Positions 19,865 through 45,464 of a stretch of 64,000 bases of DNA are shown here, piece by piece; position 1 is the first letter of the stretch; each line of letters begins with the position of its first letter. The DNA lies in IMG/VR virus record IMGVR_UViG_2718218136_000001; one strand, given 5' to 3'. Made by a program: the position numbers and the translations under genes. The DNA comes from a virus (Duplodnaviria; Heunggongvirae; Uroviricota; Caudoviricetes). A model generated the notes under the pieces. That model did not search any database, was not told where the DNA came from, and saw only the letters and a list, made by a program, of their open reading frames with translations.

Positions 19865-19955
19865 GTGCTGGCTGGGCTGCCGAAAGGCAGGCCGGTTCCC
19901 TTTGACGCCGGTAGTCTCAACCCAGTCAGTGCTACCGCCATTGAGATTGAGACCT
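19865..19955 (+). ncRNA. Candidate c4-like antisense RNA (immI repressor RNA)
   Basis: Hairpin gtctcaa...ttgagac (19914-19947) whose loop carries gctaccgc, complementary to gcggtagc at 19959-19966 just upstream of the icd RBS; direct repeat tagctcc at 19849 and 19963. Boundaries approximate. Confidence 0.35.
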
Positions 19956-19996
19956 CACGCGGTAGCTCCTTAACTTAGTCAAAGGAGGCTGCCATT

Positions 19997-21330: not shown

Positions 21331-21362
21331 TGGAAGAATGCCCGGTTGATGCCGGGCATAAT

Positions 21363-24399: not shown

Positions 24400-24416
24400 C
24401 CATTAACGCTTAAATG

Positions 24417-25757: not shown

Positions 25758-26399
25758 ATGGATAAGAAAATATGCGTTGTTTCAATGAGCGTCGGCAAAC
25801 CGGCGTCAATGACTGCTGCATGGATCAACAATGAGCTGATCATGGCTGAGCGGACCAGCTACCCTGAACGCCGCCGCGATATGGAACTCCAGCTGCTGCG
25901 CGAATTGCGAGAAAAAGAGGAAAAGGGTTTTATCGTGCTGGTGGAAGAGGAAAACAGCTTTATTACCGGTCGAGTTGGCCAGCGTGTAAGGTTGCGTGAT
26001 CCCTTCATGAACGGCAGACCGGTACTGATTGAAGCAATGCAGATTTACAAGGAATTGGAACGCCAGAAAGCGATCAAGTTACCGCGCAAGGAATCCGGCA
26101 AATACATCCTTCACCAAAGCATCTTCGATTCCGAACACGATAAAAAAGGCGATGAATTTTTCAACATCAACTGGAGCGAAATAACGACAGAACATGTTCT
26201 GACGTTACTATGTTGCTTTGCGACGGAATACAACAACGTTGCCAGCGCCGACTACATCAGGGCAATGGCTGGAGAAGTTGAGGCCCGCCAGGAGCCATCG
26301 TTACTAAGCCCTCTGATTAACAGAATTCGCGGAACCCAAACGCTGGCACAAAAACGGGTGCCGAAAGGGGAATTAACAGGAAAAGGAAATTATCTATAA
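25758..26399 (+). CDS. Protein at the mat (particle maturation) position
   Basis: ORF track 25731..26399; ATG at 25758 (MDKKICVV) has a better RBS; synteny. Confidence 0.45.
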   Translation: MDKKICVVSMSVGKPASMTAAWINNELIMAERTSYPERRRDMELQLLRELREKEEKGFIVLVEEENSFITGRVGQRVRLRDPFMNGRPVLIEAMQIYKELERQKAIKLPRKESGKYILHQSIFDSEHDKKGDEFFNINWSEITTEHVLTLLCCFATEYNNVASADYIRAMAGEVEARQEPSLLSPLINRIRGTQTLAQKRVPKGELTGKGNYL

Positions 26400-26455
26400 A
26401 CGTCAATGCATTAGGGTATACTTCTCCATAGAACTATAAGTAAATGGAGTAAGTA

Positions 26456-27556: not shown

Positions 27557-27814
27557 GTATGAAAATGAATATTTAGACGCCGTTGAATACTCAATGTCCA
27601 ACATGAGCAAAGAAATGAGATTAGGTTATTCGTGGCATGCTTATAGAGCTTGGGAAACAAGATGGTCCACAATCATTGCTTCAAATCGATTAATAATAAA
27701 AAACGCATCGAAGAAATTGGCGTACTGGAGGATGCTAATTCTATAGTAAAAGATATAGTGTAATTGAAGAGCGGCAAAAATTTAACGGGCAGCTACAACT
27801 GCCCGATATATAAA

Positions 27815-28063
27815 TCAATCCGCATTCAGGAGCAATGCGTTATCTATGATGATCTGCTCCCATTCTTCGAATGCCCGGTCGCGGACGCCCTGGGGAACGC
27901 TGTTAGTTTTGAAATCGACGACCGTACGCCATTTCCCGTCCGGACGGTACATGCGCAGAGCTTTACTTCCCCCTTCCCTGCGCACCTCAACGTTATGCTT
28001 ATCAGCAAACTCTTGTAATGCTCGTAGCGTCCCATGCTTTACTGTGTAGTATCGCTTTTTCAA
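27815..28063 (-). CDS. lxc: Lxc/Bof-like C1 co-repressor
   Basis: 82-aa basic protein upstream of darB; size and position as P1 lxc. Confidence 0.55.
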   Translation of the reverse strand: MKKRYYTVKHGTLRALQEFADKHNVEVRREGGSKALRMYRPDGKWRTVVDFKTNSVPQGVRDRAFEEWEQIIIDNALLLNAD

Positions 28064-28500
28064 GTTTTCTCTCCAGCCTGTGCCAAGGCTTCAACTTCCA
28101 AATCGTAAGACTCAAACTCATAGTCCTGGTCGTCAACTTCTTCAGGCACTGGCAGTAAATGCCAGGCTGAGTATATCTGACCATTATCAAAACGCTCCTG
28201 GCTGTAGAGCGTCGCGGCTATGAGTGTTAGCGCCGGGCGGTCATAACGGTAAATTTTGCGAACGTCACGGTCAACGAGACGACCGAAATTACCATAACCG
28301 CGCTCCAGTAATAATTTTTTAATTTCCGGCCAGTATGGACCATAGCTGCGGTACAGGCGGGGATTTTTCAGTAATCGCCCGCGTAGCCCTGACAGGAAGA
28401 AATCAACGTATTCGTCTTCTGTCTTTCCTAACAACGCTGTACGGAGTACCGCCTCAAGATATGTTTTATTCGGTTTTATTGTATCAGATAGTGTGGCCAT
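28060..28500 (-). CDS. Ulx-like protein
   Basis: 146 aa, ATGA-coupled to the lxc-like gene, immediately upstream of darB. Confidence 0.45.
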   Translation of the reverse strand: MATLSDTIKPNKTYLEAVLRTALLGKTEDEYVDFFLSGLRGRLLKNPRLYRSYGPYWPEIKKLLLERGYGNFGRLVDRDVRKIYRYDRPALTLIAATLYSQERFDNGQIYSAWHLLPVPEEVDDQDYEFESYDLEVEALAQAGEKT

Positions 28501-28533
28501 ATTATGCGACGCCCGGCGAACCGGGCGCTCCTG

Positions 28534-31500
28534 TTATGCGTATTGTTGGATGACGGCCAGAACGTCCGCCACGTTGTGTTTTGTCTCGATAATCCACCAG
28601 TTACCCGGGAAATCGCTGTTCTTCGCCTTCGCTGGCAGCCAGCGAGCGCCGAATTTCGCCTTGATTGCGTCTTTCGCACGGAAAAGAACGCCTTTCATGC
28701 CTGAGGCTTCCTGAAGCCCAAATACCTCGCCAGCGGCGAATTTTGGTGCGTACATCATCTTCAGGTCGGCGGTGGATACGCGATAATTCAGACCAAGAGA
28801 CTGAGCTATGCTGGTGGCATCACCCTGTATTGATGATAACTCTTCTTGTTTCTCGTTTCTGGCGGCAATTTCTTCCTCCGTGATGTTGCCAAGGGCCAGG
28901 TTTATCCGATCAGCGTCGGCCTGTTTCTCTTCATCGGTGCGCCCGGCAAGAACCGTGTTAATTCTCTGCAATATCTCCACATGATTCTTGCGCATGCTGA
29001 GCAATTCCGGCGTAACCTCGTTAAGATCCACCAGCCCAAGGATGGCAAGGTCGGAAAACATTGATACCAGGTTGTAGGTCATGCGATAGCTGAGTTGGCC
29101 ATAGGCTGATGGCAACTGCACCGCATCCATTTGATAGGCATCCATAAATTTAGAGCCGTCGTTTACGACATCCGCAATTGCAGGTGTGATTTTCCCTGTG
29201 GTGGCGGCCTCCCTGATTGCTGTTACCCATGATTGAGTCAGTGCGGCGACTGCATGATTCAGATTGGCTTCCCGTTCTGCTGCGATGCGCGCGCTTGCTG
29301 AGTCCATTGCCTGCTTGATCTCGGCTTTATTGCTGTAAATGCCAATGGTGCCAAACTGTGCTGTGGTGATCTCATAATCTGACGCCCGGAACTCATGGGT
29401 ACCGAAAATGGCATTGGTGACCTCAAGTTCAGAATCCCCGTTACGAGTAGCCCCCTGGCTTGTTTTCTCCGGCATTTTTGCGATCGCATCCGCTATTTTC
29501 TCCTGAATTACTTCAGGGGATAGCGTATCTCCGTATGACGCGATTACATCGCCATAATTGGAGCCAAACAATTCAACCAGGAATGTTTCTGCCGAACGGA
29601 TCTGGCGGTTATTCCCTTCCGACATCATACCAAGCACCCATTTTGCAATTGACGACTTCAGCGCGCCGTCACGGCGATCCGGGTAAACCGCATGCTTCAG
29701 TGGGGCCGTATAGGAACCAACAAAATCAATGCTATAGCCTGACTCTGTAGTCTGAACGCCGTATGAGTCAGTGATTTTGATCATGCCGCGCTGCTGGAAA
29801 CGGTAGAAATCGTCACAGGAAATGATGTCGTTAATCCCGGCGATGGAGACGCCACCACTGATTTTCTGCATAACAGCATCTTCATCGGGAGTTACATCAA
29901 CCTGTTTATCCAGCGTCTTCACATCCCAGTTACCCGATTTGGTGCCTTTGAAGGTAAAGATGATCTCCACGTCTGCGCGCTGGCTGTCGAAGTCCAGCGA
30001 CTTAATGCGAACGATATCACCGGCACAATCATAGTATTGGCCTACACGCCATGAGCGATCGCCGATAACAAGGAACTCATTCGCATGGTTAACCAGATCA
30101 GGATCAACATCCAGAATGCCTTTATTTATTGCATCCTCCACCAGCGGGCGCAGGCGTTTGATATCCGTCGCGGCCTTCTGAGTACGGTTCAATAATTTCT
30201 CATAGCGGGAGATGGCCTGAGAGATATTAGCCTTGCGCTGAATGGCGCTTTTCAACGACGCGCGATACTGTGCTAACAACATACGGTCTGTGTGATGGAC
30301 GCTACCCCAGCGGGCTTTCCAGTCTGCGTTATCAGCTGCTTTGGCCATTACCGCCTGTTTGAATTTGGCGACGTCGGCGGTGGTCTTTTCAAGTTCCGCT
30401 TTGCTTCGCTCCAATTCAGCGGTAAGTACCTCCACATCCTCACCAGCTGCGTGCTGCGCCTTGATGTAGTTCTGAAGGTCGATAGTAGCCTGTTCTTTCT
30501 GGCGAGCGCGTTTCGCAGCTTTCGCCTTATCCATTTGAACCTGCATCATTACCAGACGTTCGCCGTCATCCTTCGCGGTATACATCTGCATTTCGATCAT
30601 GTCATTGGCGTCGGCGTTCTCCATTTCTGACTTATCTGAACGGAGGATATCGGAGATCCAGCCTGCTTTACGCTTCAGCGTCTTCAGTCGGTATTCATCG
30701 AAAGACCCCTTGCCGCAGTAGTAGTGAACGCGAACGCTTGCACGGTTGGAGCCAACTCGTGCACCGCGACCGTTACGTTGTGCGATACTGGCTGGTGTCC
30801 ACGGCAACGTCAGGTGGTGGATATCCGTCGTTCCTCGATGCAGGTTGATACCCACCTCTGCCTTTTTGTTGCAGATGATGATCGGAGTCCGGCCCTCCTG
30901 GAAGTCGGCTGCAATCTTTTCCAGACCGCCCAACGACATTTCATTTTGCTGCGCGATATAGGCGTCATACAGAGCCATTTGCTCGTTGTATTTCGCTATC
31001 TGTGCATCTGTTGGTTCATCCGGTAGCTCTTTCGGCGGTTTAACCGCTTTCAGTTTCTTACCGGTTTTACCTGCCTCGGCAACCGTCTGAGCATTCAGGA
31101 TCCCCACCTTTGAAGGTTCAAGGTTTAGAGCATTGCAGATAATGCGCTTGAGCTTCTGGTGCTGCGTTTTTTCATCGGTGAAGATGATTTGCTTACCTTC
31201 CGGGAAAAACTCCTTCAGCGTCGCGATCAGCTTCGCGTATTTCGGCGTAACGGGGTGAGTTACGGTCAGTTCGTCAATGCCAAACCTGGCCAGGCGCTTA
31301 TTCACTTCCTGCTCGAACGCTTCCGGAACCTGCAACTGAATAAACTCGCCCTTATCTATCAGGGAGTATTGCGATTGCTGCGTGATTGAATCATCACTGT
31401 CGTCGTCTTCGCTGGTGGCTTGTTTAGGCAAACTGTCCGCAAGCTGCTGCACCGCATCGGCGTACTCCGGCAGGAAACGATAGGTGATCCGGCGATAGTA

Positions 31501-34500
31501 CAGGTCCATGTCAGTACATACGCGGTCCATATCCCTGATTATTGAGAAGATCGGACGGGCTTTCTCGTGCTCAATCACGCCGTCTTCATTGACCGAGGTC
31601 GTTACGCCATTGTTGGCTTTGGCCGCCGCTTCCGCCTGCTGACGCAATTCTTCATACGCCGCCAGTTGTTCTTCAGTAAGTGGTGCATCCTGCTGGTGTT
31701 CGTCCAGCTCCGGGATCTCCACGGTATCCTTAACGTCTTCCGCCGTTTTAAGCGTTACCCAGCGATGGAATATACCGCGCAGCGCATCAAGGTTTTCAAA
31801 GCCCACCAGCGCCATTTTTTCTTCAACTTCACCGCTAATTTTCTGTACCGTTTCCAGCCTGGTCTTGCCGAAGAATTTAACGAAGTCATCAGGACCGTAG
31901 ATCCCCATGTTCTGCCAGTATTCCTTCGGCAGAACATGAGAAAGCATGTTGTATGCATCGATCGGGGTGTTAACGACTGGCGTTGCAGTCAGGAGAACCG
32001 GCCCGCGCCCGCCATTCTTTTTCATCAGGTACGCGTTTTTAATTGCCATATCTCGCGCCGATTGCGCCACCGCGCTGGTGGGCAGATAGGCCAGTTGTGA
32101 CGCTTCGCGACCATTTTTATAGCTATTGCGGTAGTTGTGACCTTCGTCAGCGATCACACTATCGAAGCCCATATCCTCAAAGTACGGATACTTCTCTGCT
32201 TTTTCGGTGCCGGTATCTGAATACTCCGACAATACCCGGCGACGCGCGGCCTCTTTGCGGTGGGAGTCGGAGTCCATTGCGCTGGCTACGCGTCCGGCGG
32301 CAACGAAGTCATAAAGCATATCCTGTGCATGCTCATCTACGGTGTCATCACGTAGCGGAATGCGGGCGTATTGTTCTTTGGTAAACACGACTGCACGGTA
32401 ATTTGAGTGCGGGATCGCGTTCATCCGCGCCGTGATAGTGGCTTCATCTGCCAGCTTAAGAGCATCGCGCATAACTGGAGTGCCATCAGTACCAAGAACA
32501 GGTTTACCGTTCTCATCGAGCACCGGCACCTGGCGAATCTGATCACCATCCATCAGCACATCAAGACCGACGAACAGGTAGTTACTGAATGCCTCTTCAC
32601 TCAGGAATTCTTTTGCTTCGTAATACCAGTTTTCCAGCACTGATTTAGGCACTACATACGCAGTACGGGTGGAGCGACCGTTCTCATAGTTGAACGCCTC
32701 AAGCGCCAGCGCGGTCGTGGTTTTACCCAGCCCGGTGCCGAAGCCCAGGATGCCGCGCCCATCTTCGGACAGTCGGCGCACCTCGCTATTCTGGTAATCA
32801 AATGGCTGGCGCTTACCGCTTAATCCCTTCAACCCAAGCGGATCGCCAGAGTGTTCATACGGGATATTGCTATTGAACACATCGTTGTATTTGGCAACCA
32901 GCTCATCGTAGCGATCGTGCGTCTTGATCCACTTATTGAACTGGTCCTCAAGCAGTGCCATCTGCTCGCGGTAGCCGTTCGCCGTCGCGCTATCTTTGCC
33001 ACCGATACGCGCACCATTGAGATACTTTTCCAGCTGTGCCGGGAACCCGGTCGCGTTTTCACCTGATTTACGGTCCCACTCGTAGCGGATCTCGCCTGTT
33101 TCTTTATCCTTGCGCTGGACGACACCGTATCGGTGCCCGACGAACAGACCATCACCACCGTGATAGGTGTCAGAAACCATTTCGTCGCCTTCCAGCTGCA
33201 CTGACTGCACATAGCGCAGATCCGGATAGCCGTTTTCCTGCAAAAACTCCAGAATGACGGAACGGTCGAACCAACGGCTATTGAGCTTAAACCGGATATT
33301 CTCTGCTGGCGTCTTGATGCGCTTCTCTTCGATCGCTGCCAGCTGATTAAGGACGTTGTTCTTTACTGGACCGTCGGGGAGCGTGGCGAGGAATTCCTGT
33401 TTTGGAGCCACTATCTCGTTAATGTCGCCGCTGGTGGCGCGGGCGAACGGAACAATCCCGCCATACGGTGAAACCGCAATACCAGGAGTGCTGGCCAATA
33501 AATTAAGCAACTCTTCATCACTGGCTGGCAATTCGCCGGTAAACGCAAGGCGGAAATCATCGAGCTGGATTGGATCGCGGGTAAGATCGCTATAGAGATA
33601 ACGCAGGGTGTCCTGATAGCTGGTGGAGTCATAACTGGCGCTGGAATCATGCGTAACCAGCTTTCCTGTCAGCTCGTCAGAAATAGTGCCATCCAGCTTA
33701 ATTGCACCACGGAAAGCAAACCAGGCGCGCGCACCGCTTCCCGATAATTTAGCTATCGGACCGCGACCAGGGTTACCAAAACGGTCAATCTCTGCCTGCA
33801 AACGGGATACCAGAGAAAGGCGCTGCTGTTCGATTTGTTCAGCACTATGCCCGGCGGCCTTCATATCCTGATATTCAATTAACATCCGGCCAATCATCGC
33901 CCCACGATACAAGCGTTCACGGTATTTTTCAGGCTGGCTGTTAATCCAGTCCACCAGCGGCACCATATCGTCGCTGATTGATGTGGTGTACTTATCGCGG
34001 ACATTTGCCATCTGGGTAAATGTCATACCGAGACGGCCTTCTGTTGTAGTCAGGTTACGCTGAAGAGCCTCCCAGCTATCCGCGCCATAACTGGCAGCAT
34101 CAATTTTAAGTTCCTTCCCGGCATCAGCTTCAATCCAGCGACCACCAGCATATTTTTGCCATACGCCATTAATCAGGCGCATTTCCCCTTCACCAACAAC
34201 GTCTGCGGTCAGTGACGGTTCAGCCATATCGAGCAAAGACCAGTCGATACGGCTTTCGAAACGATGAATCAGCTTCGCTTTAAGAGCCTGGTTATCAATC
34301 TGACCGTCGGCACGAACCTCAATACGCCCCTGGAAGCCCTTTTCCTGGGTGCCATGAACAAACCGGCGGCCATCCTTTTCAAACCACTTGCCAGAAATAA
34401 ACGTTGGCCAAAGCACATTTGCTGATTCAAGAGTGCTTTCATCCACCAGGGAGATTTTCTCAGCCATCTCTGCCGGATGTTTGCGCATCAGCACCACATC

Positions 34501-35301
34501 AACGATTGTACTGGTCCCGTTTGCGTCAAAAGTACCGGTAGGCAAGCGGTGAGCGCCAAGAAATTCAGCTTTACGGGATAGGCGCAGGCGTAACCGCTTC
34601 ATGTTTGAACCTGAAACAATGGACGGCGGCACAATCACACACATGAATCCGCCAGGCTTTATCTTGTCCAGCATGCGGAGCATGAAGTAAGAACCCATGT
34701 CCGTTTCTTCTGCGTAAGGCTTATCGATGTTGCGTGTGTTATCACGACCACCGAACGGAACGTTACCCACAACATGGTCGAATGAATCGTTAGGCGTGCT
34801 TACAGCCAGCTGTTCGAACGGGGAAATCTGTACGCTGTCTTCCGGGTGTAACAGCTGGTTTATACGACCGGAAACACTGCTGATCTCAGTCGCGGTCATC
34901 ACCGTACCAACCGGTTTTGTCTCATTAAAAACGCCGGTGCCCGCCGATGGTTCCAGAGTGTTACCTACGTCCGCGCCGTAGAGCTTCATGATCTCCCAGA
35001 CACCTTCAGCGATCGGCTTTGGTGTGTAATATTCGGAGACGGACCCGCCAATGCCGCCTTCACCGGTGTACCCAGCCAGGATCTGGCGCTGTTCATCTGT
35101 CAGTGTCGCGCCGTCCACCAGCGAATTAAGCAAATCTATCGCCTTCTGATTCGCCTCCCGGCGCAGTCGGTCATAGCTTTTGCCTTCCACCTTTTCCACG
35201 CCGTATTTAATCGGCGCTCGGTGAGATGTTATTGCCCTAATGTATTTTAATATTTCGCTGACACTTGAACAGCGAAACACCCCCATAGATAGCTTGTTCA
35301 T
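28534..35301 (-). CDS. darB: DarB antirestriction protein (methyltransferase plus helicase domains)
   Basis: 2255 aa, same length as P1 DarB; helicase Walker A GFGTGLGKTTT and DEGH box. Confidence 0.9.
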   Translation of the reverse strand: MNKLSMGVFRCSSVSEILKYIRAITSHRAPIKYGVEKVEGKSYDRLRREANQKAIDLLNSLVDGATLTDEQRQILAGYTGEGGIGGSVSEYYTPKPIAEGVWEIMKLYGADVGNTLEPSAGTGVFNETKPVGTVMTATEISSVSGRINQLLHPEDSVQISPFEQLAVSTPNDSFDHVVGNVPFGGRDNTRNIDKPYAEETDMGSYFMLRMLDKIKPGGFMCVIVPPSIVSGSNMKRLRLRLSRKAEFLGAHRLPTGTFDANGTSTIVDVVLMRKHPAEMAEKISLVDESTLESANVLWPTFISGKWFEKDGRRFVHGTQEKGFQGRIEVRADGQIDNQALKAKLIHRFESRIDWSLLDMAEPSLTADVVGEGEMRLINGVWQKYAGGRWIEADAGKELKIDAASYGADSWEALQRNLTTTEGRLGMTFTQMANVRDKYTTSISDDMVPLVDWINSQPEKYRERLYRGAMIGRMLIEYQDMKAAGHSAEQIEQQRLSLVSRLQAEIDRFGNPGRGPIAKLSGSGARAWFAFRGAIKLDGTISDELTGKLVTHDSSASYDSTSYQDTLRYLYSDLTRDPIQLDDFRLAFTGELPASDEELLNLLASTPGIAVSPYGGIVPFARATSGDINEIVAPKQEFLATLPDGPVKNNVLNQLAAIEEKRIKTPAENIRFKLNSRWFDRSVILEFLQENGYPDLRYVQSVQLEGDEMVSDTYHGGDGLFVGHRYGVVQRKDKETGEIRYEWDRKSGENATGFPAQLEKYLNGARIGGKDSATANGYREQMALLEDQFNKWIKTHDRYDELVAKYNDVFNSNIPYEHSGDPLGLKGLSGKRQPFDYQNSEVRRLSEDGRGILGFGTGLGKTTTALALEAFNYENGRSTRTAYVVPKSVLENWYYEAKEFLSEEAFSNYLFVGLDVLMDGDQIRQVPVLDENGKPVLGTDGTPVMRDALKLADEATITARMNAIPHSNYRAVVFTKEQYARIPLRDDTVDEHAQDMLYDFVAAGRVASAMDSDSHRKEAARRRVLSEYSDTGTEKAEKYPYFEDMGFDSVIADEGHNYRNSYKNGREASQLAYLPTSAVAQSARDMAIKNAYLMKKNGGRGPVLLTATPVVNTPIDAYNMLSHVLPKEYWQNMGIYGPDDFVKFFGKTRLETVQKISGEVEEKMALVGFENLDALRGIFHRWVTLKTAEDVKDTVEIPELDEHQQDAPLTEEQLAAYEELRQQAEAAAKANNGVTTSVNEDGVIEHEKARPIFSIIRDMDRVCTDMDLYYRRITYRFLPEYADAVQQLADSLPKQATSEDDDSDDSITQQSQYSLIDKGEFIQLQVPEAFEQEVNKRLARFGIDELTVTHPVTPKYAKLIATLKEFFPEGKQIIFTDEKTQHQKLKRIICNALNLEPSKVGILNAQTVAEAGKTGKKLKAVKPPKELPDEPTDAQIAKYNEQMALYDAYIAQQNEMSLGGLEKIAADFQEGRTPIIICNKKAEVGINLHRGTTDIHHLTLPWTPASIAQRNGRGARVGSNRASVRVHYYCGKGSFDEYRLKTLKRKAGWISDILRSDKSEMENADANDMIEMQMYTAKDDGERLVMMQVQMDKAKAAKRARQKEQATIDLQNYIKAQHAAGEDVEVLTAELERSKAELEKTTADVAKFKQAVMAKAADNADWKARWGSVHHTDRMLLAQYRASLKSAIQRKANISQAISRYEKLLNRTQKAATDIKRLRPLVEDAINKGILDVDPDLVNHANEFLVIGDRSWRVGQYYDCAGDIVRIKSLDFDSQRADVEIIFTFKGTKSGNWDVKTLDKQVDVTPDEDAVMQKISGGVSIAGINDIISCDDFYRFQQRGMIKITDSYGVQTTESGYSIDFVGSYTAPLKHAVYPDRRDGALKSSIAKWVLGMMSEGNNRQIRSAETFLVELFGSNYGDVIASYGDTLSPEVIQEKIADAIAKMPEKTSQGATRNGDSELEVTNAIFGTHEFRASDYEITTAQFGTIGIYSNKAEIKQAMDSASARIAAEREANLNHAVAALTQSWVTAIREAATTGKITPAIADVVNDGSKFMDAYQMDAVQLPSAYGQLSYRMTYNLVSMFSDLAILGLVDLNEVTPELLSMRKNHVEILQRINTVLAGRTDEEKQADADRINLALGNITEEEIAARNEKQEELSSIQGDATSIAQSLGLNYRVSTADLKMMYAPKFAAGEVFGLQEASGMKGVLFRAKDAIKAKFGARWLPAKAKNSDFPGNWWIIETKHNVADVLAVIQQYA
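35231..35247 (+). promoter_or_regulatory. C1-operator-like site in the darB/prt divergent region
   Basis: attgccctaatgtattt. Confidence 0.4.
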
Positions 35302-35367
35302 TGGTAATCCTTAACAAGTGACTAGTGTTAAATTCCGTTAAAACACGATGCGAATTATTCTAATTAA

Positions 35368-38098
<2,731 letters not shown>

Positions 38099-38100
38099 CA

Positions 38101-38130
38101 CCCTCCACGCCCTGACGGGCGTGGAGGATG
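38101..38130. terminator. 11-bp GC-rich stem-loop between convergent pro and ddrA-like genes
   Basis: cctccacgccc tgac gggcgtggagg; no flanking U-tract. Confidence 0.45.
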
Positions 38131-38496
38131 TCACGCTGCCTCTTTAATGTTGGCGGCTATCCATGCCGCCGTGTGCTGTTTAACCTGGTCCAGGTCGATG
38201 TATGTGCCAACATATTGACTCAAATCCTGCAAGGTACCGATAAATGCATCGGTGCTCTGATCGACGAATTTATCAGCCAGGAAATCAGCAACCAGTTTTG
38301 GCACACCATCATGTTCCGAAGGTTGTTTTTCCTCGCCACTACCGCCGCCGGACGCGCCGTACCCCATCTGTTGCATGATCTGGTCAATTTCATCGCTGAT
38401 ATCCAGCAACTCCATGCCACTCGCGGTAGCAGCTTTGGACATCAGAGAATCCAACTTGTCGCTGAGGTCCATTAACTCAATAGCTGATAGTGTCAT
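38131..38496 (-). CDS. Small acidic protein at the ddrA position
   Basis: 121 aa, immediately downstream of darA. Confidence 0.5.
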   Translation of the reverse strand: MTLSAIELMDLSDKLDSLMSKAATASGMELLDISDEIDQIMQQMGYGASGGGSGEEKQPSEHDGVPKLVADFLADKFVDQSTDAFIGTLQDLSQYVGTYIDLDQVKQHTAAWIAANIKEAA

Positions 38497-40412
38497 GCAG
38501 CTACCCCCGCTTTCTGGATTGCTACCAGCAGATCAGCCAGGTGGCGAGCAGCGCCATTAACCAGCTCTTCGTTTTCCTCAAAACGTCCGGCAGCCTGAAG
38601 GGCTGCAATCGCTTCCCGGACATTGCCCCGGGCGTTACGGATCTCCGCCATGTCAGTGCTTTGCATATCCATCATGTTATTGAGATATTCAATGGCTTTA
38701 TTAGCCTCTGCATCTGCTTCGCTAACCGTTTCATCAGGCTGTGCCGGGGCCGGTTCTGGCTGAGTAATCTCACCAACTTCGGTCTGCAATGCATTGATCA
38801 TGCTCTGCACCATTTTCTCGGTGCCAGCGCCACCCGGAAACACAATATTGGGGAAAGTTTTTTGAAACTGAGTTTTCAGCATTACGCGGAACTCGTCTGG
38901 TGAGCTGGTGGCCAGCTCCAGAGCTTTTTGTGCATATTTGCCAAACGGACCATTAGTAAGTGTCTTCGCCAGGAAGTCGAAAGAATCCTCGCGAGGCAAT
39001 AACTTCAGGTCGTACTCACTCATTTGCTGATCAGAAAGCGGGGTATCGTAAGTAGCAATGCCGTAGCGTGCATATTCATAATACGAGTCACCTTCATCAG
39101 GGCGCGGCAGAATCGCTTTGTTACCTTCAGGTATTGCGCCAGGGGCCGCCGGACGCATTTGCAGGGCATATCGATATGCACCTACAGAGACTTCTGGTTC
39201 AGGCGAAGAGCTACCGGTATCCTCCGCTGGTTCAGGTTCGACGTTTTCCGGTTTATGTTCTTCTGGTTGGACCAGATATTCCGATACATTACCCGCTTTA
39301 TAGGCTTTAAACAGCTTGCCGATCGCATCTGCCATGTCCACACCCTGTATGGATTTAGCCTTGATCATGTATACGCTGCCATCCGGATCGGTTAACTGGA
39401 TATACCCTTCGCCATCCCCAATGAATTGCTTCATTGATGCACCATTACTGAGCGTCGCTTCCCCGTCCATATGCATACGATTTTTGATACTGACAAGGCG
39501 ATCCGTCAGCGCGCGAGAGTGCCCACCAGTCATCCCCGCTGGAGCAATGGTATCGCGCCCACCAGTGCGATTGAGCTGATCAATCTCCGTCTGCAAACTC
39601 TCATTCTCTTCATAAAGAGAATCCGCTTCCGATGCAACAGCGTTAATTTTCTGCTCCAGATCTGCCTTCTGCCCTTCTACCGCTGCCACCTGATCCGCGA
39701 AGTCGCTCATGGCATCCTCTTTCTGGTCACTGTCAGCCTGTAGTTGGGTTATTTCATCAACAAGGGCTTTTTTCTTCTTCTGCGCACGCTGGAATTTTGC
39801 CGAGTTTTTCTCTGCAAGGTTGGCAAGTTTCATGGTGACCTGCGCCAGCGTCATATCACGTCCACTCATCGGAGCAACGGTGTGAGTAACGTCTTTTTTA
39901 TTCAGTAAGAACTGGAAAGCAACCAGCGTATCGCTATTGGTGATCCGGTTTTCCGCTGTCGGGCTATGAAACAAAATGCTGATAGTCTGACCATCACTGA
40001 GCGGAATAATGGCTGGCAGGACCGGCAGCCCGTTAACGTTACGTGCCCGACCAATTTCAGCGCCGCCGATCGCGCGCGAGCCGCTCTGGGCCACATCCCC
40101 CGTTTTATCACTCCCCGCAGAGATTCCGGTACCATTCAGCTTCTGGTTCAATGCCCGGACAAATGCCTGCATGGTCCGGTGTAACTGCAAACGAGTAGAA
40201 CTAATCGCCTCCAGTAAATCCGTAGCACACCAGTGGATCGGTGTGTCATAGAAGAACGTAGCCTCGATTTCCTCCAGGGTGTTGGATTCCGTCATCAGAT
40301 AGCGGTCCTCACCGGCCATTAATGCGCGATATTCATCATCAGTCACTGGCGGGGGAAGCACGTCAAGCCCAGGCTTGATCGTCACCCCTTTATTGATATT
40401 GAACTGTTCCAT
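38493..40412 (-). CDS. darA: DarA antirestriction/capsid internal protein
   Basis: 639 aa; shares a KNSAKFQ...KAK segment with the upstream hdf-like gene. Confidence 0.75.
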   Translation of the reverse strand: MEQFNINKGVTIKPGLDVLPPPVTDDEYRALMAGEDRYLMTESNTLEEIEATFFYDTPIHWCATDLLEAISSTRLQLHRTMQAFVRALNQKLNGTGISAGSDKTGDVAQSGSRAIGGAEIGRARNVNGLPVLPAIIPLSDGQTISILFHSPTAENRITNSDTLVAFQFLLNKKDVTHTVAPMSGRDMTLAQVTMKLANLAEKNSAKFQRAQKKKKALVDEITQLQADSDQKEDAMSDFADQVAAVEGQKADLEQKINAVASEADSLYEENESLQTEIDQLNRTGGRDTIAPAGMTGGHSRALTDRLVSIKNRMHMDGEATLSNGASMKQFIGDGEGYIQLTDPDGSVYMIKAKSIQGVDMADAIGKLFKAYKAGNVSEYLVQPEEHKPENVEPEPAEDTGSSSPEPEVSVGAYRYALQMRPAAPGAIPEGNKAILPRPDEGDSYYEYARYGIATYDTPLSDQQMSEYDLKLLPREDSFDFLAKTLTNGPFGKYAQKALELATSSPDEFRVMLKTQFQKTFPNIVFPGGAGTEKMVQSMINALQTEVGEITQPEPAPAQPDETVSEADAEANKAIEYLNNMMDMQSTDMAEIRNARGNVREAIAALQAAGRFEENEELVNGAARHLADLLVAIQKAGVAA

Positions 40413-40413: not shown

Positions 40414-41025
40414 TTAATTTCCTGCTTTCAGTTGCTTAAGACGACGTTTGAGTTCGCCATTCCGTGCCTTTTCGTTATTGAGTCGGCCCGTCTCCTTATC
40501 CAGCTTCGCCCGCAAATCAGTGATCTGCTGTTGATTGAAAGACACCGAATTCTGCGCGGACTTATAAGCGGCAACCACCTGAGCATTCCGCTGTTTTGCT
40601 TCTTGCAGGCGCTGAAAGTTGGATTTAACTGCCGGTTTCTTGTCTACCGGATTGGCAACACGCTTCGCTTTGGCGATCAGTGATTTCTGGAATTTTGCGG
40701 AGTTTTTGCGGGCCGCTTGCCCCATGACGGTACCAAGCGTCTTGATATCCGGCGACTGAGCGTTAGGAATAGCTTTTCCATTCAGCTTCACAGACGATAT
40801 ATCGCCAGTATCGTTTACCTGTATGGCAAGAATTTGTCCGTCGTTAAGAACCAGCTTTGCTGTTTTAACTTTAACGCCATCTTTCGTTGTTGCGCGGTTG
40901 CTGGAGTCAACCTCAATTACCGTAACACCGGTTTTATTGATCGCCGCGATAAGGGATTTCAGCCCCTTTTCATTAACCTGGTCAAAATCGACCGTTGCAT
41001 ACTTATTTTTCGTCATCTGACACAT
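40414..41025 (-). CDS. hdf: Hdf-like protein (homolog of DarA fragment)
   Basis: 203 aa; similarity to a DarA segment. Confidence 0.6.
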   Translation of the reverse strand: MCQMTKNKYATVDFDQVNEKGLKSLIAAINKTGVTVIEVDSSNRATTKDGVKVKTAKLVLNDGQILAIQVNDTGDISSVKLNGKAIPNAQSPDIKTLGTVMGQAARKNSAKFQKSLIAKAKRVANPVDKKPAVKSNFQRLQEAKQRNAQVVAAYKSAQNSVSFNQQQITDLRAKLDKETGRLNNEKARNGELKRRLKQLKAGN

Positions 41026-41446
41026 CCTGTGCGAGATTTATTACGTAACTTCTGCGGATTTGCTGAGTAACAGGGAAAATCCGATACAACGGGTTAATGA
41101 ACGAGTCGCCATGCGTAACCATGACGTTGAAATGCCACAGTCGCTCTCCTTTACCCATATATTCAGTGGGTATGTACAACCATTCACTGTTTTCGCCCTG
41201 TTCAGCCGACGTCAGACAACGTTGTTCACCTTCAATCACTGTCGTCGGCTTCTGAACATCGCGGATCCAATATCTGACCGTTGCGCCGCGCAAAAACGGG
41301 AATTTAGACCGGTATTTGAACGGCACCCGGATGAAACCCGGTTTAATTTCCACATCACCAAGTTCTAAATGCGTGATGTCCTTGCGTTTTAGCAAATAGC
41401 GATCGGCTAAGGCTAACGCAAGAACGCATACACCCCAGCCAATCAT
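41003..41446 (-). CDS. lydB: LydB-like antiholin
   Basis: 147 aa directly downstream of the holin gene. Confidence 0.55.
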   Translation of the reverse strand: MIGWGVCVLALALADRYLLKRKDITHLELGDVEIKPGFIRVPFKYRSKFPFLRGATVRYWIRDVQKPTTVIEGEQRCLTSAEQGENSEWLYIPTEYMGKGERLWHFNVMVTHGDSFINPLYRIFPVTQQIRRSYVINLAQDVSDDEK

Positions 41447-41772
41447 TTCCCGCCTCCCTTTTTCACCAAACTTGTAAGAACATTCAGAATGCTATCGATA
41501 TTCACTCGTTTCATCCCTGAAATCACCTCATGACCGTTATTGCTGGCTATCGTTACCATTAAGTACGTAATTGATAACTCCCAGCCCTCGTGTTGCCCCA
41601 ATAGGTACGCCACCGCGCCAGCTGTCACTGCAACAAAGATCTCCGTAACCAATCCCAACAAATTGCCAGACTGGCGACCGTCTCGGACATCCATCAGGAA
41701 CGTGCCTATCCCACCAATTACTGAAAGCAGGAGCGCAATAGCAACTGGAGCTAATTCCTGTGTGTCAAGCAC
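41443..41772 (-). CDS. lydA: Holin LydA
   Basis: 109 aa with two to three TM helices and charged C-terminus. Confidence 0.7.
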   Translation of the reverse strand: MLDTQELAPVAIALLLSVIGGIGTFLMDVRDGRQSGNLLGLVTEIFVAVTAGAVAYLLGQHEGWELSITYLMVTIASNNGHEVISGMKRVNIDSILNVLTSLVKKGGGK

Positions 41773-41839: not shown

Positions 41840-42121
41840 TTAAGAGGCATTTCTATTGAGGTACGAATCAATAATCCTTTGTAACTTTTCAAGAATGAGC
41901 CTGTTATTGATGCTGCAAATAATAGTCACGCAATTCTGAAGACTTTCATCCATACCCTTATATTCCGCGAAATACATGCCTATAAAGCCTGCAAGTACGG
42001 CAGCAATACACTCGGCCATCAATTGCCTGCATGACGCTTCGTAACGTTTTTCACAAACCCCATTCAGAAACGAATGCACCCCGCCAAGGATGGAGAGGAG
42101 CATTATTGTGAAATCACACAT
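41840..42121 (-). CDS. Small membrane protein, holin-like
   Basis: 93 aa with two hydrophobic segments. Confidence 0.45.
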   Translation of the reverse strand: MCDFTIMLLSILGGVHSFLNGVCEKRYEASCRQLMAECIAAVLAGFIGMYFAEYKGMDESLQNCVTIICSINNRLILEKLQRIIDSYLNRNAS

Positions 42122-42809: not shown

Positions 42810-42826
42810 ACCTTGGTTTAAGAGAA
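42801..42826. other. cixL crossover site (caatcctaaacc-tt-ggtttaagagaa)
   Basis: 26-bp imperfect dyad at the outer edge of the left inverted repeat. Confidence 0.75.
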
Positions 42827-43409
42827 CTCGGTACCAGCGGTGAAAAGATCCCCCTGTTGAGCACGGCTAACACATGGAGTGCACGCCAGACTTTCAACGG
42901 CGGGATCACCGGGGCGCTGACAGGGAACGCCGATACCGCAACAAAATTGAAAACAGCCAGAAACATTAATGGCGTCAGGTTCGATGGTTCTGGTGACATT
43001 AATATCAATACTCTGGTATCGCGCGGTCGCGTAACGGCCCTGGAGGCGAATGCACAGGGAACATCCGGGATTCAGCTGTATGAGGCATACAACAATGGCT
43101 ACCCTTCCCCCTATGGCAATGTGCTTCACCTTAAAGGTGCCACCGCTGCTGGCGAAGGTGAGTTATTCATTGGCTGGAGTGGCACGAGCGGTACCCATGC
43201 GCCCGTACATATCCGTTCGCGGCGGGATACTGATTCTGCCAACTGGTCTGAATGGGCGCAGGTCTATACGTCAAAAGATTCAATTCCCGGCGTCAATGCC
43301 AAAGGGGATCAGGATACCTCTGGTAATGCGGCTACAGCGACCAAGTTGCAGACAGCATGTACTATCAACGGTGTCTCGTTTGATGGTTCTAAAAATATTG
43401 AGCTAACGG
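42811..43409. repeat. Left ~600-bp inverted repeat of the invertible C segment
   Basis: Reverse-complement identical to 46514-47111. Confidence 0.9.
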
Positions 43410-44371
43410 TTGAAAATTTAAATCTTGAGCGAACAGTAGAATTAGCCGCTGGGTCATTGCAGAAAAATCAGAACGGCGCGGATATTCCTGGAAAAGATAC
43501 CTTCACTAAAAATATTGGTGCATGTCGCGCTTTTCACAGTTCTATTAGTACAGGTGCAGGGAACTGGACAACGGCACAATTGATTGAATGGCTGGATTCT
43601 CAAGGGGCATTCAATCACCCATACTGGATGTGCAAATGTTCATGGTCGTACGGCAATAATAAAATTATAACCGATACTGGCTGTGGAACTATTCATCTTG
43701 CAGGTTGCGTTATTGAGGTTATGGGTAATAAAGGTGCCATGACCATACGCGTTACTACGCCGAGCACGTCCAGCGGTGGCGGAATCACTAACGCTCAATT
43801 CACTTATATTAATCATGGTGATGCTTACGCTCCTGGCTGGCGACGAGACTACAACACGAAAAACCAGCAGCCTGCATTTGCTTTAGGGCAAACAGGACGC
43901 AGGGTCGCAAATGATAAAGCTGTTGGCTGGAACTGGAATAGCGGCGTTTATGATGCAGATATCAGTGGCGCATCGACATTAATCCTCCACTTTAATATGA
44001 ATGCGGGGAGTTGCCCTGCTGTACAGTTCCGCGTGAATTACAGAAATGGCGGTATCTTTTATCGTTCAGCGCGTGATGGTTATGGCTTTGAAGCTAACTG
44101 GTCAGAGTTTTACACCACAACACGCAAACCCTCTGCGGGAGATGTTGGTGCATATACGCAGGCAGAATGTAACTCAAGGTTTATTACAGGTATTCGCCTT
44201 GGCGGTCTGTCATCTGTTCAGACATGGAATGGTCCTGGCTGGTCTGACAGGTCAGGTTATGTCGTTACTGGTTCAGTTAACGGAAACCGTGATGAATTAA
44301 TTGATACAACTCAGGCAAGGCCAATTCAGTATTGCATTAATGGGACGTGGTATAACGCGGGGAGTATTTAA
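42857..44371 (+). CDS. Alternative tail-fibre variable cassette Sv' (silent in this orientation)
   Basis: Promoterless; first ~185 aa identical to an internal part of S; distinct C-terminal domain. Confidence 0.8.
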   Translation: MSTANTWSARQTFNGGITGALTGNADTATKLKTARNINGVRFDGSGDININTLVSRGRVTALEANAQGTSGIQLYEAYNNGYPSPYGNVLHLKGATAAGEGELFIGWSGTSGTHAPVHIRSRRDTDSANWSEWAQVYTSKDSIPGVNAKGDQDTSGNAATATKLQTACTINGVSFDGSKNIELTVENLNLERTVELAAGSLQKNQNGADIPGKDTFTKNIGACRAFHSSISTGAGNWTTAQLIEWLDSQGAFNHPYWMCKCSWSYGNNKIITDTGCGTIHLAGCVIEVMGNKGAMTIRVTTPSTSSGGGITNAQFTYINHGDAYAPGWRRDYNTKNQQPAFALGQTGRRVANDKAVGWNWNSGVYDADISGASTLILHFNMNAGSCPAVQFRVNYRNGGIFYRSARDGYGFEANWSEFYTTTRKPSAGDVGAYTQAECNSRFITGIRLGGLSSVQTWNGPGWSDRSGYVVTGSVNGNRDELIDTTQARPIQYCINGTWYNAGSI

Positions 44372-44373
44372 TT

Positions 44374-44907
44374 ATGATGCACTTAAGAAATATTACAGCT
44401 GGCAACCCTAAAACAAAAGAGCAATACCAGCTAACGAAACAATTTAACATCAAATGGCTTTATACAGAGGATGGAAAAAACTGGTATGAGGAACAAAAGA
44501 ATTTCCAGTATGATACGTTGAAAATGGCCTATGACCACAACGGCGTTATTATTTGTATTGAAAAGGATGTTTCAGCAATTAATCCAGAAGGCGCAAGCGT
44601 CGTTGAATTACCTGATATTACAGCAAATCGCCGGGCTGATATTTCTGGTAAATGGATGTTCAAAGATGGCGTAGTGGTAAAGCGAACTTATACCGAGGAA
44701 GAGCAGAGGCAACAAGCGGAAAATGAAAAGCAAAGTCTGCTACAGCTCGTCAGGGATAAAACCCAGCTATGGGACTCACAGCTACGGCTGGGTATCATTT
44801 CCGCCGAGAATAAGCAGAAATTAACCGAGTGGATGCTCTTTGCGCAGAAAGTCGAATCCACAGACACCTCCAGCCTACCAGTAACATTTCCCGAACAACC
44901 TGAATGA
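44374..44907 (+). CDS. Alternative tail-fibre assembly chaperone U'
   Basis: 177 aa, N-terminus MMHL(R/K)NI(T/Q)AGN shared with U. Confidence 0.8.
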   Translation: MMHLRNITAGNPKTKEQYQLTKQFNIKWLYTEDGKNWYEEQKNFQYDTLKMAYDHNGVIICIEKDVSAINPEGASVVELPDITANRRADISGKWMFKDGVVVKRTYTEEEQRQQAENEKQSLLQLVRDKTQLWDSQLRLGIISAENKQKLTEWMLFAQKVESTDTSSLPVTFPEQPE

Positions 44908-44935
44908 GACAAGGCCCGATAGCGGGCCTTAATTT

Positions 44936-45463
44936 TTATTCAGGCTTTTGTGGCCATTCAGGATTTGCCGTATCCACACGGCTGACCAGAACACTGTAGC
45001 GTTCCCATGCTTCCAGTCGTGTGCGTTCCTCGTCTGTTGCCATATTCAGCCTGACAGCGCGTTCCAGCGGCTGGATGACTGATTCAGCTTCGGAAAGCAA
45101 TGCGGCCTTTTGTGATTCGGCTTGTTGTTGCTGTTCGTCTGCCGTATAAATCCGTTTAACTACAGCTCCATCCTTAAACATCCACTTTCCTGAATCATCA
45201 GCGCGGCGGTTGGCTGTTATGTCGGGAACCTCAACGACGCTAAAACCTTCAGGGTTAAGCGTGGAGGCATCTTTGGTGATGGCGACAATAATATTATTTT
45301 CATCGTAAACAATCTTTATGGTGTCTGGCTGAAAGTTTTTCACTTCCTCATACCAGTTTTTTTCGTCCTCAGAGTAAAGCCAGATGACTCCGTGCTTCTT
45401 TGTTAACTCATACTGCTCCAGTGTTTTAGCATTACCCGCTTGTATGTTCTTTAAGTGCATCAT
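44936..45463 (-). CDS. U: Tail-fibre assembly chaperone U (expressed orientation)
   Basis: 175 aa directly downstream of S. Confidence 0.8.
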
Positions 45464-45464
45464 A

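What the first reader, a model, noticed from the sequence alone, without database searches (positions are those of the whole stretch)
38099..38131. pro is followed directly by the convergent darA operon; lysozyme, ssb, hxr and ddrB genes are missing from this position
In P1 (recollection) lyz, an IS1, ssb, hxr and ddrB lie between pro and ddrA. Here pro ends at 38098 and the ddrA-like gene begins 33 bp later on the other strand, separated only by a GC hairpin. No endolysin is identifiable anywhere in the 64 kb despite holin and antiholin genes being present.
Basis: partly seen in the sequence, partly recalled or inferred. Interest (0 to 1): 0.4.

Follow-up and report, generated by a model that had tools for sequence, protein, structure and literature searches.

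The report
IS609-scarred deletion of P1 lysis block
This P1-like phage-plasmid has lost about 8.5 kb, including its only cell-wall-degrading enzyme (lyz), ssb and ddrB, by a deletion between the end hairpins of two inverted IS609 insertion sequences; it is an ordinary decay event that probably leaves the phage unable to burst its host.

Summary
Phage P1 has 7,516 bp between these points (lydE, lydD, lyz, ssb, isaA, IS1, isaB, hxr, ddrB/iddB). None of these genes, and no other endolysin, is detectable in the 64 kb.

The "GC hairpin" is not a terminator. The 40 nt at 38095-38134 are the only non-P1 bases at the junction. They consist of the outward-facing right ends of two inverted IS609 (IS200/IS605, tnpB-only) copies, fused at their shared sub-terminal hairpin.

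Relatives show the earlier states:
- About 40 plasmids carry the IS609 copy next to pro.
- 75 plasmids carry the copy next to ddrA.
- 12 Salmonella plasmids carry both, inverted, flanking lyz to ddrB.

The crossover lies in a 9-nt direct repeat (GGGCGTGGA). This resembles Tn10 "nearly precise excision".

No record among about 1,000 P1-like records in three curated collections has this junction. However, two independent short-read assemblies carry it at 99.98-99.99% identity, so the deletion is real.

Of the lost genes only lyz is essential in P1, so I predict a lysis-defective element. The part of the replicon outside the window could not be inspected. Interest is low.

The parts
35377..37086 (+). 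prt (portal), 569 aa
   Evidence: 98.9% identical to P1 Prt over the full length.
37079..38098 (+). pro (head processing protein), 339 aa. The last codon and the stop are changed from P1 AAA TAA (K, stop) to AAT TGA (N, stop) by the IS609 end.
   Evidence: 99.1% identical to P1 Pro over aa 1-338. Sequence comparison with P1 and L002.
38095..38134 (.). 40-nt IS609 footprint, the only non-P1 bases at the junction. It is made of the reverse-complemented right-end tail of the pro-side copy, one hairpin, and the right-end tail of the ddrA-side copy.
   Evidence: P1 identity stops at 38094 and resumes at 38135. Alignment to both IS609 ends in L002.
38095..38125 (-). Last 31 nt (hairpin plus tail GGGTGTCAA) of the pro-side IS609 copy
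   Evidence: 100% identical to nt 1306-1336 of IS609 copy 1 of NZ_CP149138.1. The same sequence continues into tnpB in GCA_035827035.1 (L009).
38102..38127 (.). Hairpin with an 11-bp stem and loop TGAC (38113-38116)
   Evidence: Fold at -18.7 kcal/mol, z = -6.5. Unique in the window. No T-tract, and not called as a terminator.
38117..38125 (+). Inferred crossover interval, the 9-nt direct repeat GGGCGTGGA shared by both right-end hairpins
   Evidence: The loop TGAC to its left matches the pro-side copy. All close relatives have loop TTCG in the ddrA-side copy. The tail GGATGTCAC to its right matches the ddrA-side copy.
38126..38134 (+). Right-end tail (GGATGTCAC) of the ddrA-side IS609 copy. 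It supplies the TGA stop codon of ddrA.
   Evidence: Identical in 10 relatives that carry the ddrA-side IS609. P1 has GCA TAA where the window has GCG TGA.
38131..38496 (-). ddrA, 121 aa
   Evidence: 97.5% identical to P1 DdrA over the full length.
38493..40412 (-). darA, 639 aa
   Evidence: 97.8% identical to P1 DarA.
40414..41025 (-). hdf
   Evidence: 99% identical to P1 Hdf.
41003..41446 (-). lydB (antiholin)
   Evidence: 98.6% identical to P1 LydB.
41443..41772 (-). lydA (holin)
   Evidence: 100% identical to P1 LydA.
41840..42121 (-). lydC (holin)
   Evidence: 100% identical to P1 LydC.

Best explanation
The window comes from a P1-like (Punavirus) phage-plasmid whose ancestor carried two IS609 elements. 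IS609 belongs to the IS200/IS605 family; these copies are tnpB-only and about 1,335 bp long.

One copy was inserted on the TTAT that overlaps the pro stop codon. The other was inserted on the TTAT that overlaps the ddrA stop codon. The two copies were in inverted orientation with their right ends facing outward. They bracketed the block lydE/lydD-lyz-ssb-(accessory genes)-hxr-ddrB.

Each right end carries the same 9-bp-stem hairpin, so the two inverted copies share short direct repeats (TCCACGCCC and GGGCGTGGA). A deletion with its crossover in GGGCGTGGA removed both IS bodies and everything between them: 8,466 bp relative to NZ_CP149138.1, and 7,516 bp of P1-equivalent sequence. It left a 40-nt palindromic scar that still provides the TGA stop codons of pro and ddrA.

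I infer the mechanism. The most likely route is transposase-independent copy-choice slippage, or single-strand annealing after hairpin cleavage. Snap-back pairing of the 1.3-kb inverted repeats would bring the two hairpins together and promote the event, as in Tn10 precise and nearly precise excision.

I also infer the consequence. The element keeps holins LydA and LydC and antiholin LydB, but has no muralytic enzyme. After induction it should kill the host without lysing it or releasing virions. It also lacks phage SSB, Hxr and the Dar component DdrB. It therefore most likely persists as a plasmid only.
For: Shown directly:
- P1 identity ends at 38094 and resumes at 38135.
- The 40 nt in between equal the right-end tail and hairpin of the pro-side IS609 (31/31 nt) followed by the right-end tail of the ddrA-side IS609.
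- Plasmid NZ_CP149138.1 carries both copies (1,336 and 1,335 bp, 95.7% identical, inverted) at exactly these two sites, flanking lyz, ssb, hxr and ddrB.
- The pro-IS junction is present in about 40 plasmids, the IS-ddrA junction in 75, and both in 12.
- The two transposase-like proteins scanned, one from each insertion site (SJ46 ddrA-side copy and L002 pro-side copy), are TnpB (OrfB_IS605, Cas12f1-like TNB and HTH domains).
- PMC6906374 describes IS609 between pro and lydE in pJIE250-3, with cleavage sites left TTAT and right TCAA. These match the ends found here.
- The nearest full-length relatives, CP021729.1 and GCA_036607425.1, are 100% identical on the pro side and 99.6% on the ddrA side. 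They still hold IS609-ddrB-hxr-porin-ssb-lyz.
- GCA_035827035.1 is 99.955% identical up to the hairpin and then runs into IS609 tnpB.
- The identical junction occurs in independent short-read assemblies: ERR1880019 (99.98% over 15.8 kb, contig seen in 2 samples) and ERR15823409 (99.99%).
- In the genome-wide CRISPRi map of P1, lyz is the only essential gene among those deleted (PMC10695390). Lyz is P1's SAR endolysin (PMC9025707).

Supporting the inferred mechanism:
- Copy-choice deletion between short repeats within inverted repeats, stimulated by rolling-circle replication, is described for Tn10-type nearly precise excision (PMC12524634; references).
Against: - No sequenced molecule is the direct parent. 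The only records seen with both IS609 copies (Salmonella plasmids) are just 97-98.7% identical to the window.
- The step from the two-IS state to the deletion is inferred from end-point anatomy and was not observed.
- Slippage cannot be told apart from break-and-anneal repair.
- About 22 kb or more of the replicon lies outside the window, so lyz could in principle sit elsewhere.
- The right end of the window is of poor quality, so the source assembly is not uniformly reliable.
- The lysis-defective phenotype is predicted, not tested.
Confidence: 0.8

Rival explanations
1. Assembly artefact. The assembler joined pro to ddrA through the palindromic IS609 hairpins, and the real molecule still holds IS609-lyz...ddrB-IS609.
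For: The window's right end carries about 70 single-base deletions in 2 kb and an unexplained join to a second copy of the cre 3' end. The source assembly is therefore locally unreliable. Draft assemblies of close relatives break contigs at this IS (L009 and L010).
Against: The identical junction is found in two separately assembled short-read data sets (ERR1880019 and ERR15823409), in contigs of 21.6 and 15.2 kb that are 99.98-99.99% identical to the window. The two IS ends share only 9 nt in direct orientation, which is far below assembler k-mer sizes. The region around the junction is of high quality, with 1 mismatch and 2 gaps in 15.8 kb.
Confidence: 0.04
2. Relocation rather than loss. 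The lyz-ssb-ddrB block, or a second intact copy of the region, lies elsewhere on the same replicon or in the host, so the element is still lysis-proficient.
For: Only 64 kb are visible. Window 63907-64000 is a second, 100% identical copy of the cre 3' end, which could mark the start of a partial duplication.
Against: Two inverted IS200/IS605 elements cannot mobilise the segment between them, because a left end and a right end must lie in order on one strand (established mechanism of the family; own knowledge). None of the several hundred P1-like records returned by the searches, in every listed row and fetched locus, shows lyz anywhere but next to pro. The second cre copy lies next to a stretch of error-ridden sequence and is more likely an artefact.
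Confidence: 0.08
3. Transposase-driven event. The block was removed by IS609 TnpA excision, or by TnpB cleavage followed by repair.
For: Both end points lie in IS609 right ends. The IS200/IS605 transposase recognises exactly these sub-terminal hairpins (family knowledge).
Against: TnpA cuts at the element tips (after TTAT on the left and after TCAA/TCAC on the right) and reseals the empty site. Here both 9-nt right-end tails survive and the join lies inside the hairpin. The two right ends lie on opposite strands, so no left-right pair spans the block. These copies encode only TnpB. No IS609 body, tnpA or tnpB is left in the window.
Confidence: 0.05
4. Deliberate engineering of a lysis-deficient P1 derivative.
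For: Engineered P1 genomes exist in the public phage collection, for example OP279344 'del res del mod'.
Against: The end points coincide with natural IS609 footprints and carry no cassette, FRT/lox scar or designed sequence. The backbone is a wild P1-like plasmid with type I R-M, SIR2 and Ant-like accessory modules. The junction occurs in sequencing runs with unrelated accession series.
Confidence: 0.02

Closest known systems
Phage P1 (NC_005856) and P7, pro-to-ddrA interval
   Same: Same flanking genes in the same order and orientation at 97-100% protein identity: darB, prt and pro on the left; ddrA, darA, hdf, lydB, lydA, lydC and cin on the right.
   Different: P1 has 7,516 bp here (lydE, lydD, lyz, ssb, isaA, IS1, isaB, hxr, ddrB/iddB). 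The window has 40 nt of IS609 ends instead.
Salmonella plasmid pZ1323SSL0064-3 (NZ_CP149138.1) and 11 sister records
   Same: These records have IS609 at both sites, inverted, with right ends facing outward. Their pro-IS and IS-ddrA junction sequences are the ones fused in the window.
   Different: They still contain both IS bodies and the lyz-ssb-hxr-ddrB block, 8,466 bp more than the window. The backbone is only 97-98.7% identical, so this is a model of the ancestor and not the ancestor itself.
E. coli plasmid CP021729.1, GCA_036607425.1 and GCA_035827035.1 (nearest backbones)
   Same: 100% identity on the pro side and 99.6% on the ddrA side for the first two; 99.955% for the third.
   Different: The first two have only the ddrA-side IS609 and keep ddrB-hxr-porin-ssb-lyz. 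The third has the pro-side IS609, and its contig ends inside the IS.
IS609 (IS200/IS605 family), as reported in P1-like plasmids pJIE250-3 and pSvP1 (PMC6906374)
   Same: Same target (TTAT), same right-end terminus (TCAA), and same insertion site between pro and lydE.
   Different: The window holds only the last 31 nt and 9 nt of two copies. It has no tnpB, no left end and no TTAT joint.
Tn10 precise and nearly precise excision (Ross et al. 1979; Foster et al. 1981; d'Alencon et al. 1994)
   Same: About 1.3-kb inverted IS copies flank several kb. The deletion runs between short direct repeats located at or within the IS ends and leaves a short palindromic remnant. The process is thought to be transposase-independent copy choice. 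The repeat and remnant sizes for Tn10 come from my own knowledge.
   Different: The IS family differs: this is a single-strand 'peel and paste' element, not IS10. The direct repeats arise because a sub-terminal hairpin is palindromic. The event is inferred from natural sequences and was not selected in the laboratory.

Membership tests
P1-like phage-plasmid (Punavirus) | Gene order colinear with P1 at high identity | tested here: met
   blastn shows the window colinear with P1 at 95-99% identity, apart from a few accessory replacements. About 55 P1 proteins are found, most of them full-length and at 85-100% identity.
P1-like phage-plasmid (Punavirus) | Complete lysis system: SAR endolysin Lyz with pinholin LydD, plus LydA/LydB/LydC | tested here: not met
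   lyz, lydD and lydE are absent (E > 0.1). lydA, lydB and lydC are present.
P1-like phage-plasmid (Punavirus) | Plasmid replicon and partition genes (repA, parA, parB) | not testable with these tools
   The P1 region gp21-gp24, which includes repA and parAB, lies outside the 64-kb window.
IS609 / IS200-IS605 element | Sub-terminal right-end hairpin followed by about 9 nt ending in TCAA/TCAC | tested here: met
   38095-38125 matches the pro-side right end 31/31 nt. The tail GGATGTCAC matches the ddrA-side right end. The TCAA cleavage site is reported in PMC6906374.
IS609 / IS200-IS605 element | tnpB (and/or tnpA) gene, and a left end abutting TTAT | tested here: not met
   No tnpB or IS body is present in the window. 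This is a footprint, not an element.
Inverted-repeat-stimulated deletion (Tn10-type nearly precise excision) | The parental structure has long inverted repeats bracketing the lost DNA | tested here: met
   This was seen in relatives, not in a direct parent: inverted IS609 copies of 1,336 and 1,335 bp, 95.7% identical.
Inverted-repeat-stimulated deletion (Tn10-type nearly precise excision) | End points lie in short direct repeats inside the repeat ends, and the remnant is a short palindrome built from both outer ends | tested here: met
   A 9-nt GGGCGTGGA repeat at the end points, a 40-nt remnant, and a 38-nt near-palindrome.
Inverted-repeat-stimulated deletion (Tn10-type nearly precise excision) | Independence from transposase and RecA | not testable with these tools
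   This needs genetics.
Intrinsic (bidirectional) terminator | G+C-rich hairpin followed by a T-tract on the transcribed strand | tested here: not met
   The hairpin is present, but neither strand has a T-run after it. The scan does not call it.

The most novel reading that the evidence does not exclude
An inverted pair of IS609 copies turns the lyz-ssb-ddrB block of P1-like phage-plasmids into a cassette that is shed at appreciable frequency, perhaps during rolling-circle replication. Shedding occurs by hairpin-to-hairpin copy choice. It gives lysis-defective derivatives that survive as plain plasmids and circulate; the same junction is seen in at least three sequencing runs. This would be a concrete and recurrent route from phage-plasmid to plasmid.
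Probability: 0.12. Interest if true: 0.45.

Novelty: new member of a known kind. Interest (0 to 1): 0.2.

Why it matters
The finding explains an apparent paradox, holins without an endolysin, as a simple scar. It warns annotators that this element is probably a defective, plasmid-only derivative and not an inducible phage. It also gives a clean natural example of how the palindromic ends of IS200/IS605 elements create direct repeats between inverted copies and so promote loss of the DNA between them. If the deletion recurs, it would bear on how phage-plasmids decay into plasmids. As a single event it is ordinary genome decay.

Tried and rejected
- **Exact-pattern scans.** I scanned for the junction, with the loop left free, in genome contigs, viral contigs and metagenome contigs. 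There were no hits. The source record could not be identified.
- **Curated collections.** megablast of the junction against phages, plasmids and complete E. coli genomes returned 20, 489 and 489 P1-like records. None had the junction contiguous.
- **Second odd junction.** The join at 63906/63907 was searched in plasmids. It was absent from 740 records.
- **Rfam.** A search on an intact IS609 gave only a sub-threshold RAGATH-18 hit (28 bits against a gathering score of 44.9). This was not informative.
- **Terminator reading of the hairpin.** Rejected, because there is no T-tract.
- **Homologous recombination between the IS copies.** Rejected, because the copies are inverted and recombination would invert the block, not delete it.
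- **TnpA excision.** Rejected, because the join is not at the cleavage sites.
- **Wrap-around of a circular record as the source of the second cre fragment.** Rejected, because the sequence before 63907 is not the sequence before 24316.
- **Pseudogenes in the right part of the window.** I first read the kilA, ant1, bplB and pmgG frameshifts as signs of decay. I then found that they sit in or just before the stretch (densest at 61500-63500) with about 70 deletion-biased single-base errors, 46 of 80 scored deletions lying in short base runs of 1-2 nt adjacent repeats or longer. I now treat them as sequencing errors.
- **Looking for lyz in the same samples.** This was not feasible, because look-ups cannot be restricted to one sample.

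Full report
**Observation**

The pro ORF ends with TGA at 38096-38098. The 121-aa ddrA ORF on the minus strand has its stop codon at 38131-38133. The 32-nt spacer contains a perfect 11-bp G+C-rich stem (38102-38112 / 38117-38127) with loop TGAC. Counting the flanks, 38096-38133 is a 38-nt near-palindrome. As single-stranded DNA it folds at -18.7 kcal/mol, z = -6.5. The 22-nt hairpin core is unique in the window, against 0 expected by chance.

Reference P1 (NC_005856) has the following between the pro stop (20033) and the ddrA stop (27542): lydE, lydD, lyz, ssb, isaA, IS1, isaB, hxr and ddrB/iddB. By base-level comparison, the window lacks P1 20030-27545 (7,516 bp).

tblastn of every one of these P1 proteins against the 64 kb finds nothing better than E = 0.19. 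The flanking proteins are found at 97.5-100% identity.

**No endolysin in the window**

The window is colinear with P1, running from gp7 through cre, darB, pro, ddrA, the C-segment, sit and repL to pmgG. The non-P1 segments are 8193-14400, 19638-21363, 26268-27805, 57258-58632 and 62052-62719, plus a 241-bp gap inside the S tail-fibre gene (45971-46211). Their ORFs were scanned:
- a type I R-M system;
- an icd/Ant-like module with ORF6N and KilAC domains, and a SIR2_2 protein;
- DUF5384 and TraT-like proteins;
- small ORFs with no family match.

None is a muralytic enzyme. P1 has a single endolysin, the SAR endolysin Lyz (PMC9025707).

**What the spacer is**

P1 identity stops at 38094 and resumes at 38135. 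Exactly 40 nt (38095-38134) are foreign.

In Salmonella plasmid NZ_CP149138.1 (L002), two transposase genes lie right after pro and right before ddrA, in inverted orientation. The two transposase-like proteins scanned, one from each insertion site (SJ46 ddrA-side copy and L002 pro-side copy), are TnpB, with OrfB_IS605, Cas12f1-like TNB and HTH_OrfB_IS605 domains.

Comparison with P1 defines both elements:
- They are 1,336 and 1,335 bp long and 95.7% identical.
- Each is inserted 3' of a TTAT that overlaps a TAA stop codon, of pro on the minus strand and of ddrA on the plus strand.
- Their right ends face outward.
- Each right end is a 9-bp-stem hairpin (TCCACGCCC-NNNN-GGGCGTGGA) followed by 9 nt (GGGTGTCAA or GGATGTCAC).
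- The tail supplies a new TGA stop to the adjacent gene.

A published description of P1-like plasmids names this element IS609. It reports the element between pro and lydE in pJIE250-3, with cleavage sites left TTAT and right TCAA, and reports an IS609-like copy in pSvP1 (PMC6906374).

The window's 40 nt read as follows:
- the reverse complement of the pro-side tail, TTGACACCC (38095-38103);
- one hairpin with loop TGAC (38104-38125);
- the ddrA-side tail, GGATGTCAC (38126-38134).

The last 31 nt of the pro-side copy match the window 31/31. All ten relatives examined have loop TTCG (CGAA in SJ46) in the ddrA-side copy. The loop in the window therefore comes from the pro-side copy, and the crossover lies in the 9-nt GGGCGTGGA (38117-38125). 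Relative to L002, 8,466 bp are missing. No other IS609 sequence is present in the window.

**Earlier states in relatives**

- The pro-IS609 junction is present in about 40 plasmids.
- The IS609-ddrA junction is present in 75 plasmids, and in phages SJ46, RCS47 and 813R1.
- Both junctions occur together in 12 Salmonella records.
- The nearest backbones with an intact block, CP021729.1 and GCA_036607425.1, are 100% identical to the window over the last 1.4 kb of prt-pro and 99.6% identical over ddrA to lydA. They hold ddrA-IS609-ddrB-hxr-porin-ssb-lyz-pro.
- GCA_035827035.1 is 99.955% identical to window 27079-38125 and then continues into IS609 tnpB.

**Is the deletion real?**

None of 20 phage records, 489 plasmid records or 489 complete E. 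coli genome records has the junction contiguous. Exact-pattern scans of three further collections were empty.

However, a look-up of the exact Pro protein found the same arrangement in two separately assembled public sequencing runs:
- ERR1880019, a 21.6-kb contig seen in 2 samples;
- ERR15823409, a 15.2-kb contig.

Both carry the identical 40-nt junction and are 99.98% and 99.99% identical to the window. The two IS ends share only 9 nt in direct orientation, so a k-mer mis-join is implausible. I conclude that the deletion is real and belongs to a lineage seen more than once.

**Mechanism (inferred)**

Homologous recombination between inverted copies would invert the block, not delete it.

IS200/IS605 TnpA cuts at the element tips and reseals the empty site. 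Here both tails survive, the join lies inside the hairpin, the two right ends are on opposite strands, and the copies encode only TnpB. A transposase-driven event is therefore unlikely.

The anatomy fits deletion between short direct repeats that are brought together by pairing of long inverted repeats. The features are 1.3-kb inverted repeats, end points in a short direct repeat within the repeat ends, and a short palindromic remnant. This is the pattern described for Tn10 precise and nearly precise excision:
- Ross et al. 1979 and Foster et al. 1981 are cited.
- Copy-choice evidence, and stimulation by rolling-circle replication, from d'Alencon et al. is summarised in PMC12524634.
- The Tn10 repeat and remnant sizes are from my own knowledge.

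P1 replicates by rolling circle late in infection, which would favour such slippage. This last point is inference.

The loops of the same IS609 right end are reverse complements of each other in SJ46 (CGAA) and its relatives (TTCG). This is the classic signature of template switching within a hairpin. It suggests that these hairpins are prone to polymerase strand switching.

**Consequences (inferred)**

In the genome-wide CRISPRi map of P1, lyz is essential. lydE, lydD, ssb, isaA, isaB, hxr, ddrB and iddB are non-essential (PMC10695390). DdrB aids DarB addition to the capsid (PMC9024508).

The element keeps LydA, LydB and LydC but has no enzyme to open the cell wall. It should kill the host without lysing it and should form no plaques unless an endolysin is supplied in trans.

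The pro/lyz bidirectional terminator hairpin of P1 is also gone. The IS609 palindrome has no T-tract and is not called as a terminator. A terminator-like site inside the 3' end of ddrA (38151-38171, plus strand) is the next candidate stop for pro read-through.

**Limits**

The window lacks the P1 region from gp21 to gp24, about 22 kb that includes repA and parAB. Relocation of lyz therefore cannot be excluded.

The window's right end is unreliable. Between 61500 and 63500 there are about 70 single-base indels relative to a close relative, nearly all of them deletions. At 63906/63907 the last 43 nt of gp21 are joined, without microhomology, to a 100% identical second copy of the cre 3' end. This join is seen in none of 740 plasmids. 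I regard it as a probable assembly artefact. It does not affect the pro-ddrA junction, which lies in sequence confirmed by independent assemblies.

**Verdict**

The explanation is ordinary: an IS-associated deletion in a well-known phage-plasmid family, giving a probably lysis-defective derivative. Interest is low. The only mildly instructive point is that the palindromic ends of two inverted IS609 copies supplied the direct repeats for the deletion.

Noticed in passing
window 63907-64000 (junction at 63906/63907): A second, 100% identical copy of the cre 3' end and downstream bases (equal to window 24316-24409) is joined, without microhomology, to the last 43 nt of gp21. 466 P1-like plasmids align across this region only up to 63906, and none of 740 plasmid records has the join. 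It is probably an assembly artefact, but a real rearrangement or partial duplication is possible.
   Followed up: partly
window 61500-63500 (sparser from about 59800): About 70 single-base indels, nearly all deletions, relative to a 97% identical plasmid (NZ_CP069885.1). This error profile resembles raw long reads. It breaks kilA (60374-61172) and probably also ant1, repL, bplB and pmgG into fragments. These apparent pseudogenes are probably sequencing errors.
   Followed up: partly
window 26456-27556: A 366-aa SIR2_2-domain protein sits where P1 has the EcoP1 res/mod genes, between mat and lxc. It is a likely defence gene in the known variable region.
   Followed up: no
window 8268-14300: A complete type I restriction-modification system (hsdR 1038 aa, hsdS 411 aa, hsdM 520 aa) replaces pmgT between pap and phd.
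   Followed up: partly
window 20018-21330: A second icd-like/ant-like module lies between pacB and c1, in addition to the regular immI icd/ant1 at 58961-59940. Icd is 80% identical to P1 Icd. The 371-aa protein with ORF6N and KilAC domains is 54% identical to P1 Ant1.
   Followed up: no
window 57286-58350: DUF5384 and TraT-like proteins replace P1 simB/simC (superinfection exclusion).
   Followed up: no
L002 10596-11931 and 17767-19101; P1 (L001) 3031-3034 and 10543-10546: Both IS609 copies inserted exactly on the TTAT that overlaps the TAA stop codons of pro and ddrA. The right-end terminus (TCAA/TCAC) supplies a replacement TGA stop, so the insertions are nearly silent (Pro K339N only).
   Followed up: yes
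L003 10005-10008 versus L002 19073-19076 and L011-L020: The 4-nt loop of the same IS609 right-end hairpin is CGAA in phage SJ46 and its reverse complement TTCG in nine other relatives. This loop inversion is typical of template switching in quasi-palindromes.
   Followed up: no
L008 11346-15154 (Logan ERR15823409 contig 273): In this second sample that carries the deletion, the sequence after cin joins window 42818 to 50889 in reverse. This implies an inversion with one end inside bplA (477 aa reduced to 352 aa), or an assembly artefact at the cix repeat.
   Followed up: no
L011-L016 (e.g. L011 17658-18773): The closest full-length relatives carry an OmpC-like porin gene (371 aa) between hxr and ssb, inside the block that is deleted in the window. 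The pro-ddrA interval is a hotspot for cargo genes.
   Followed up: no
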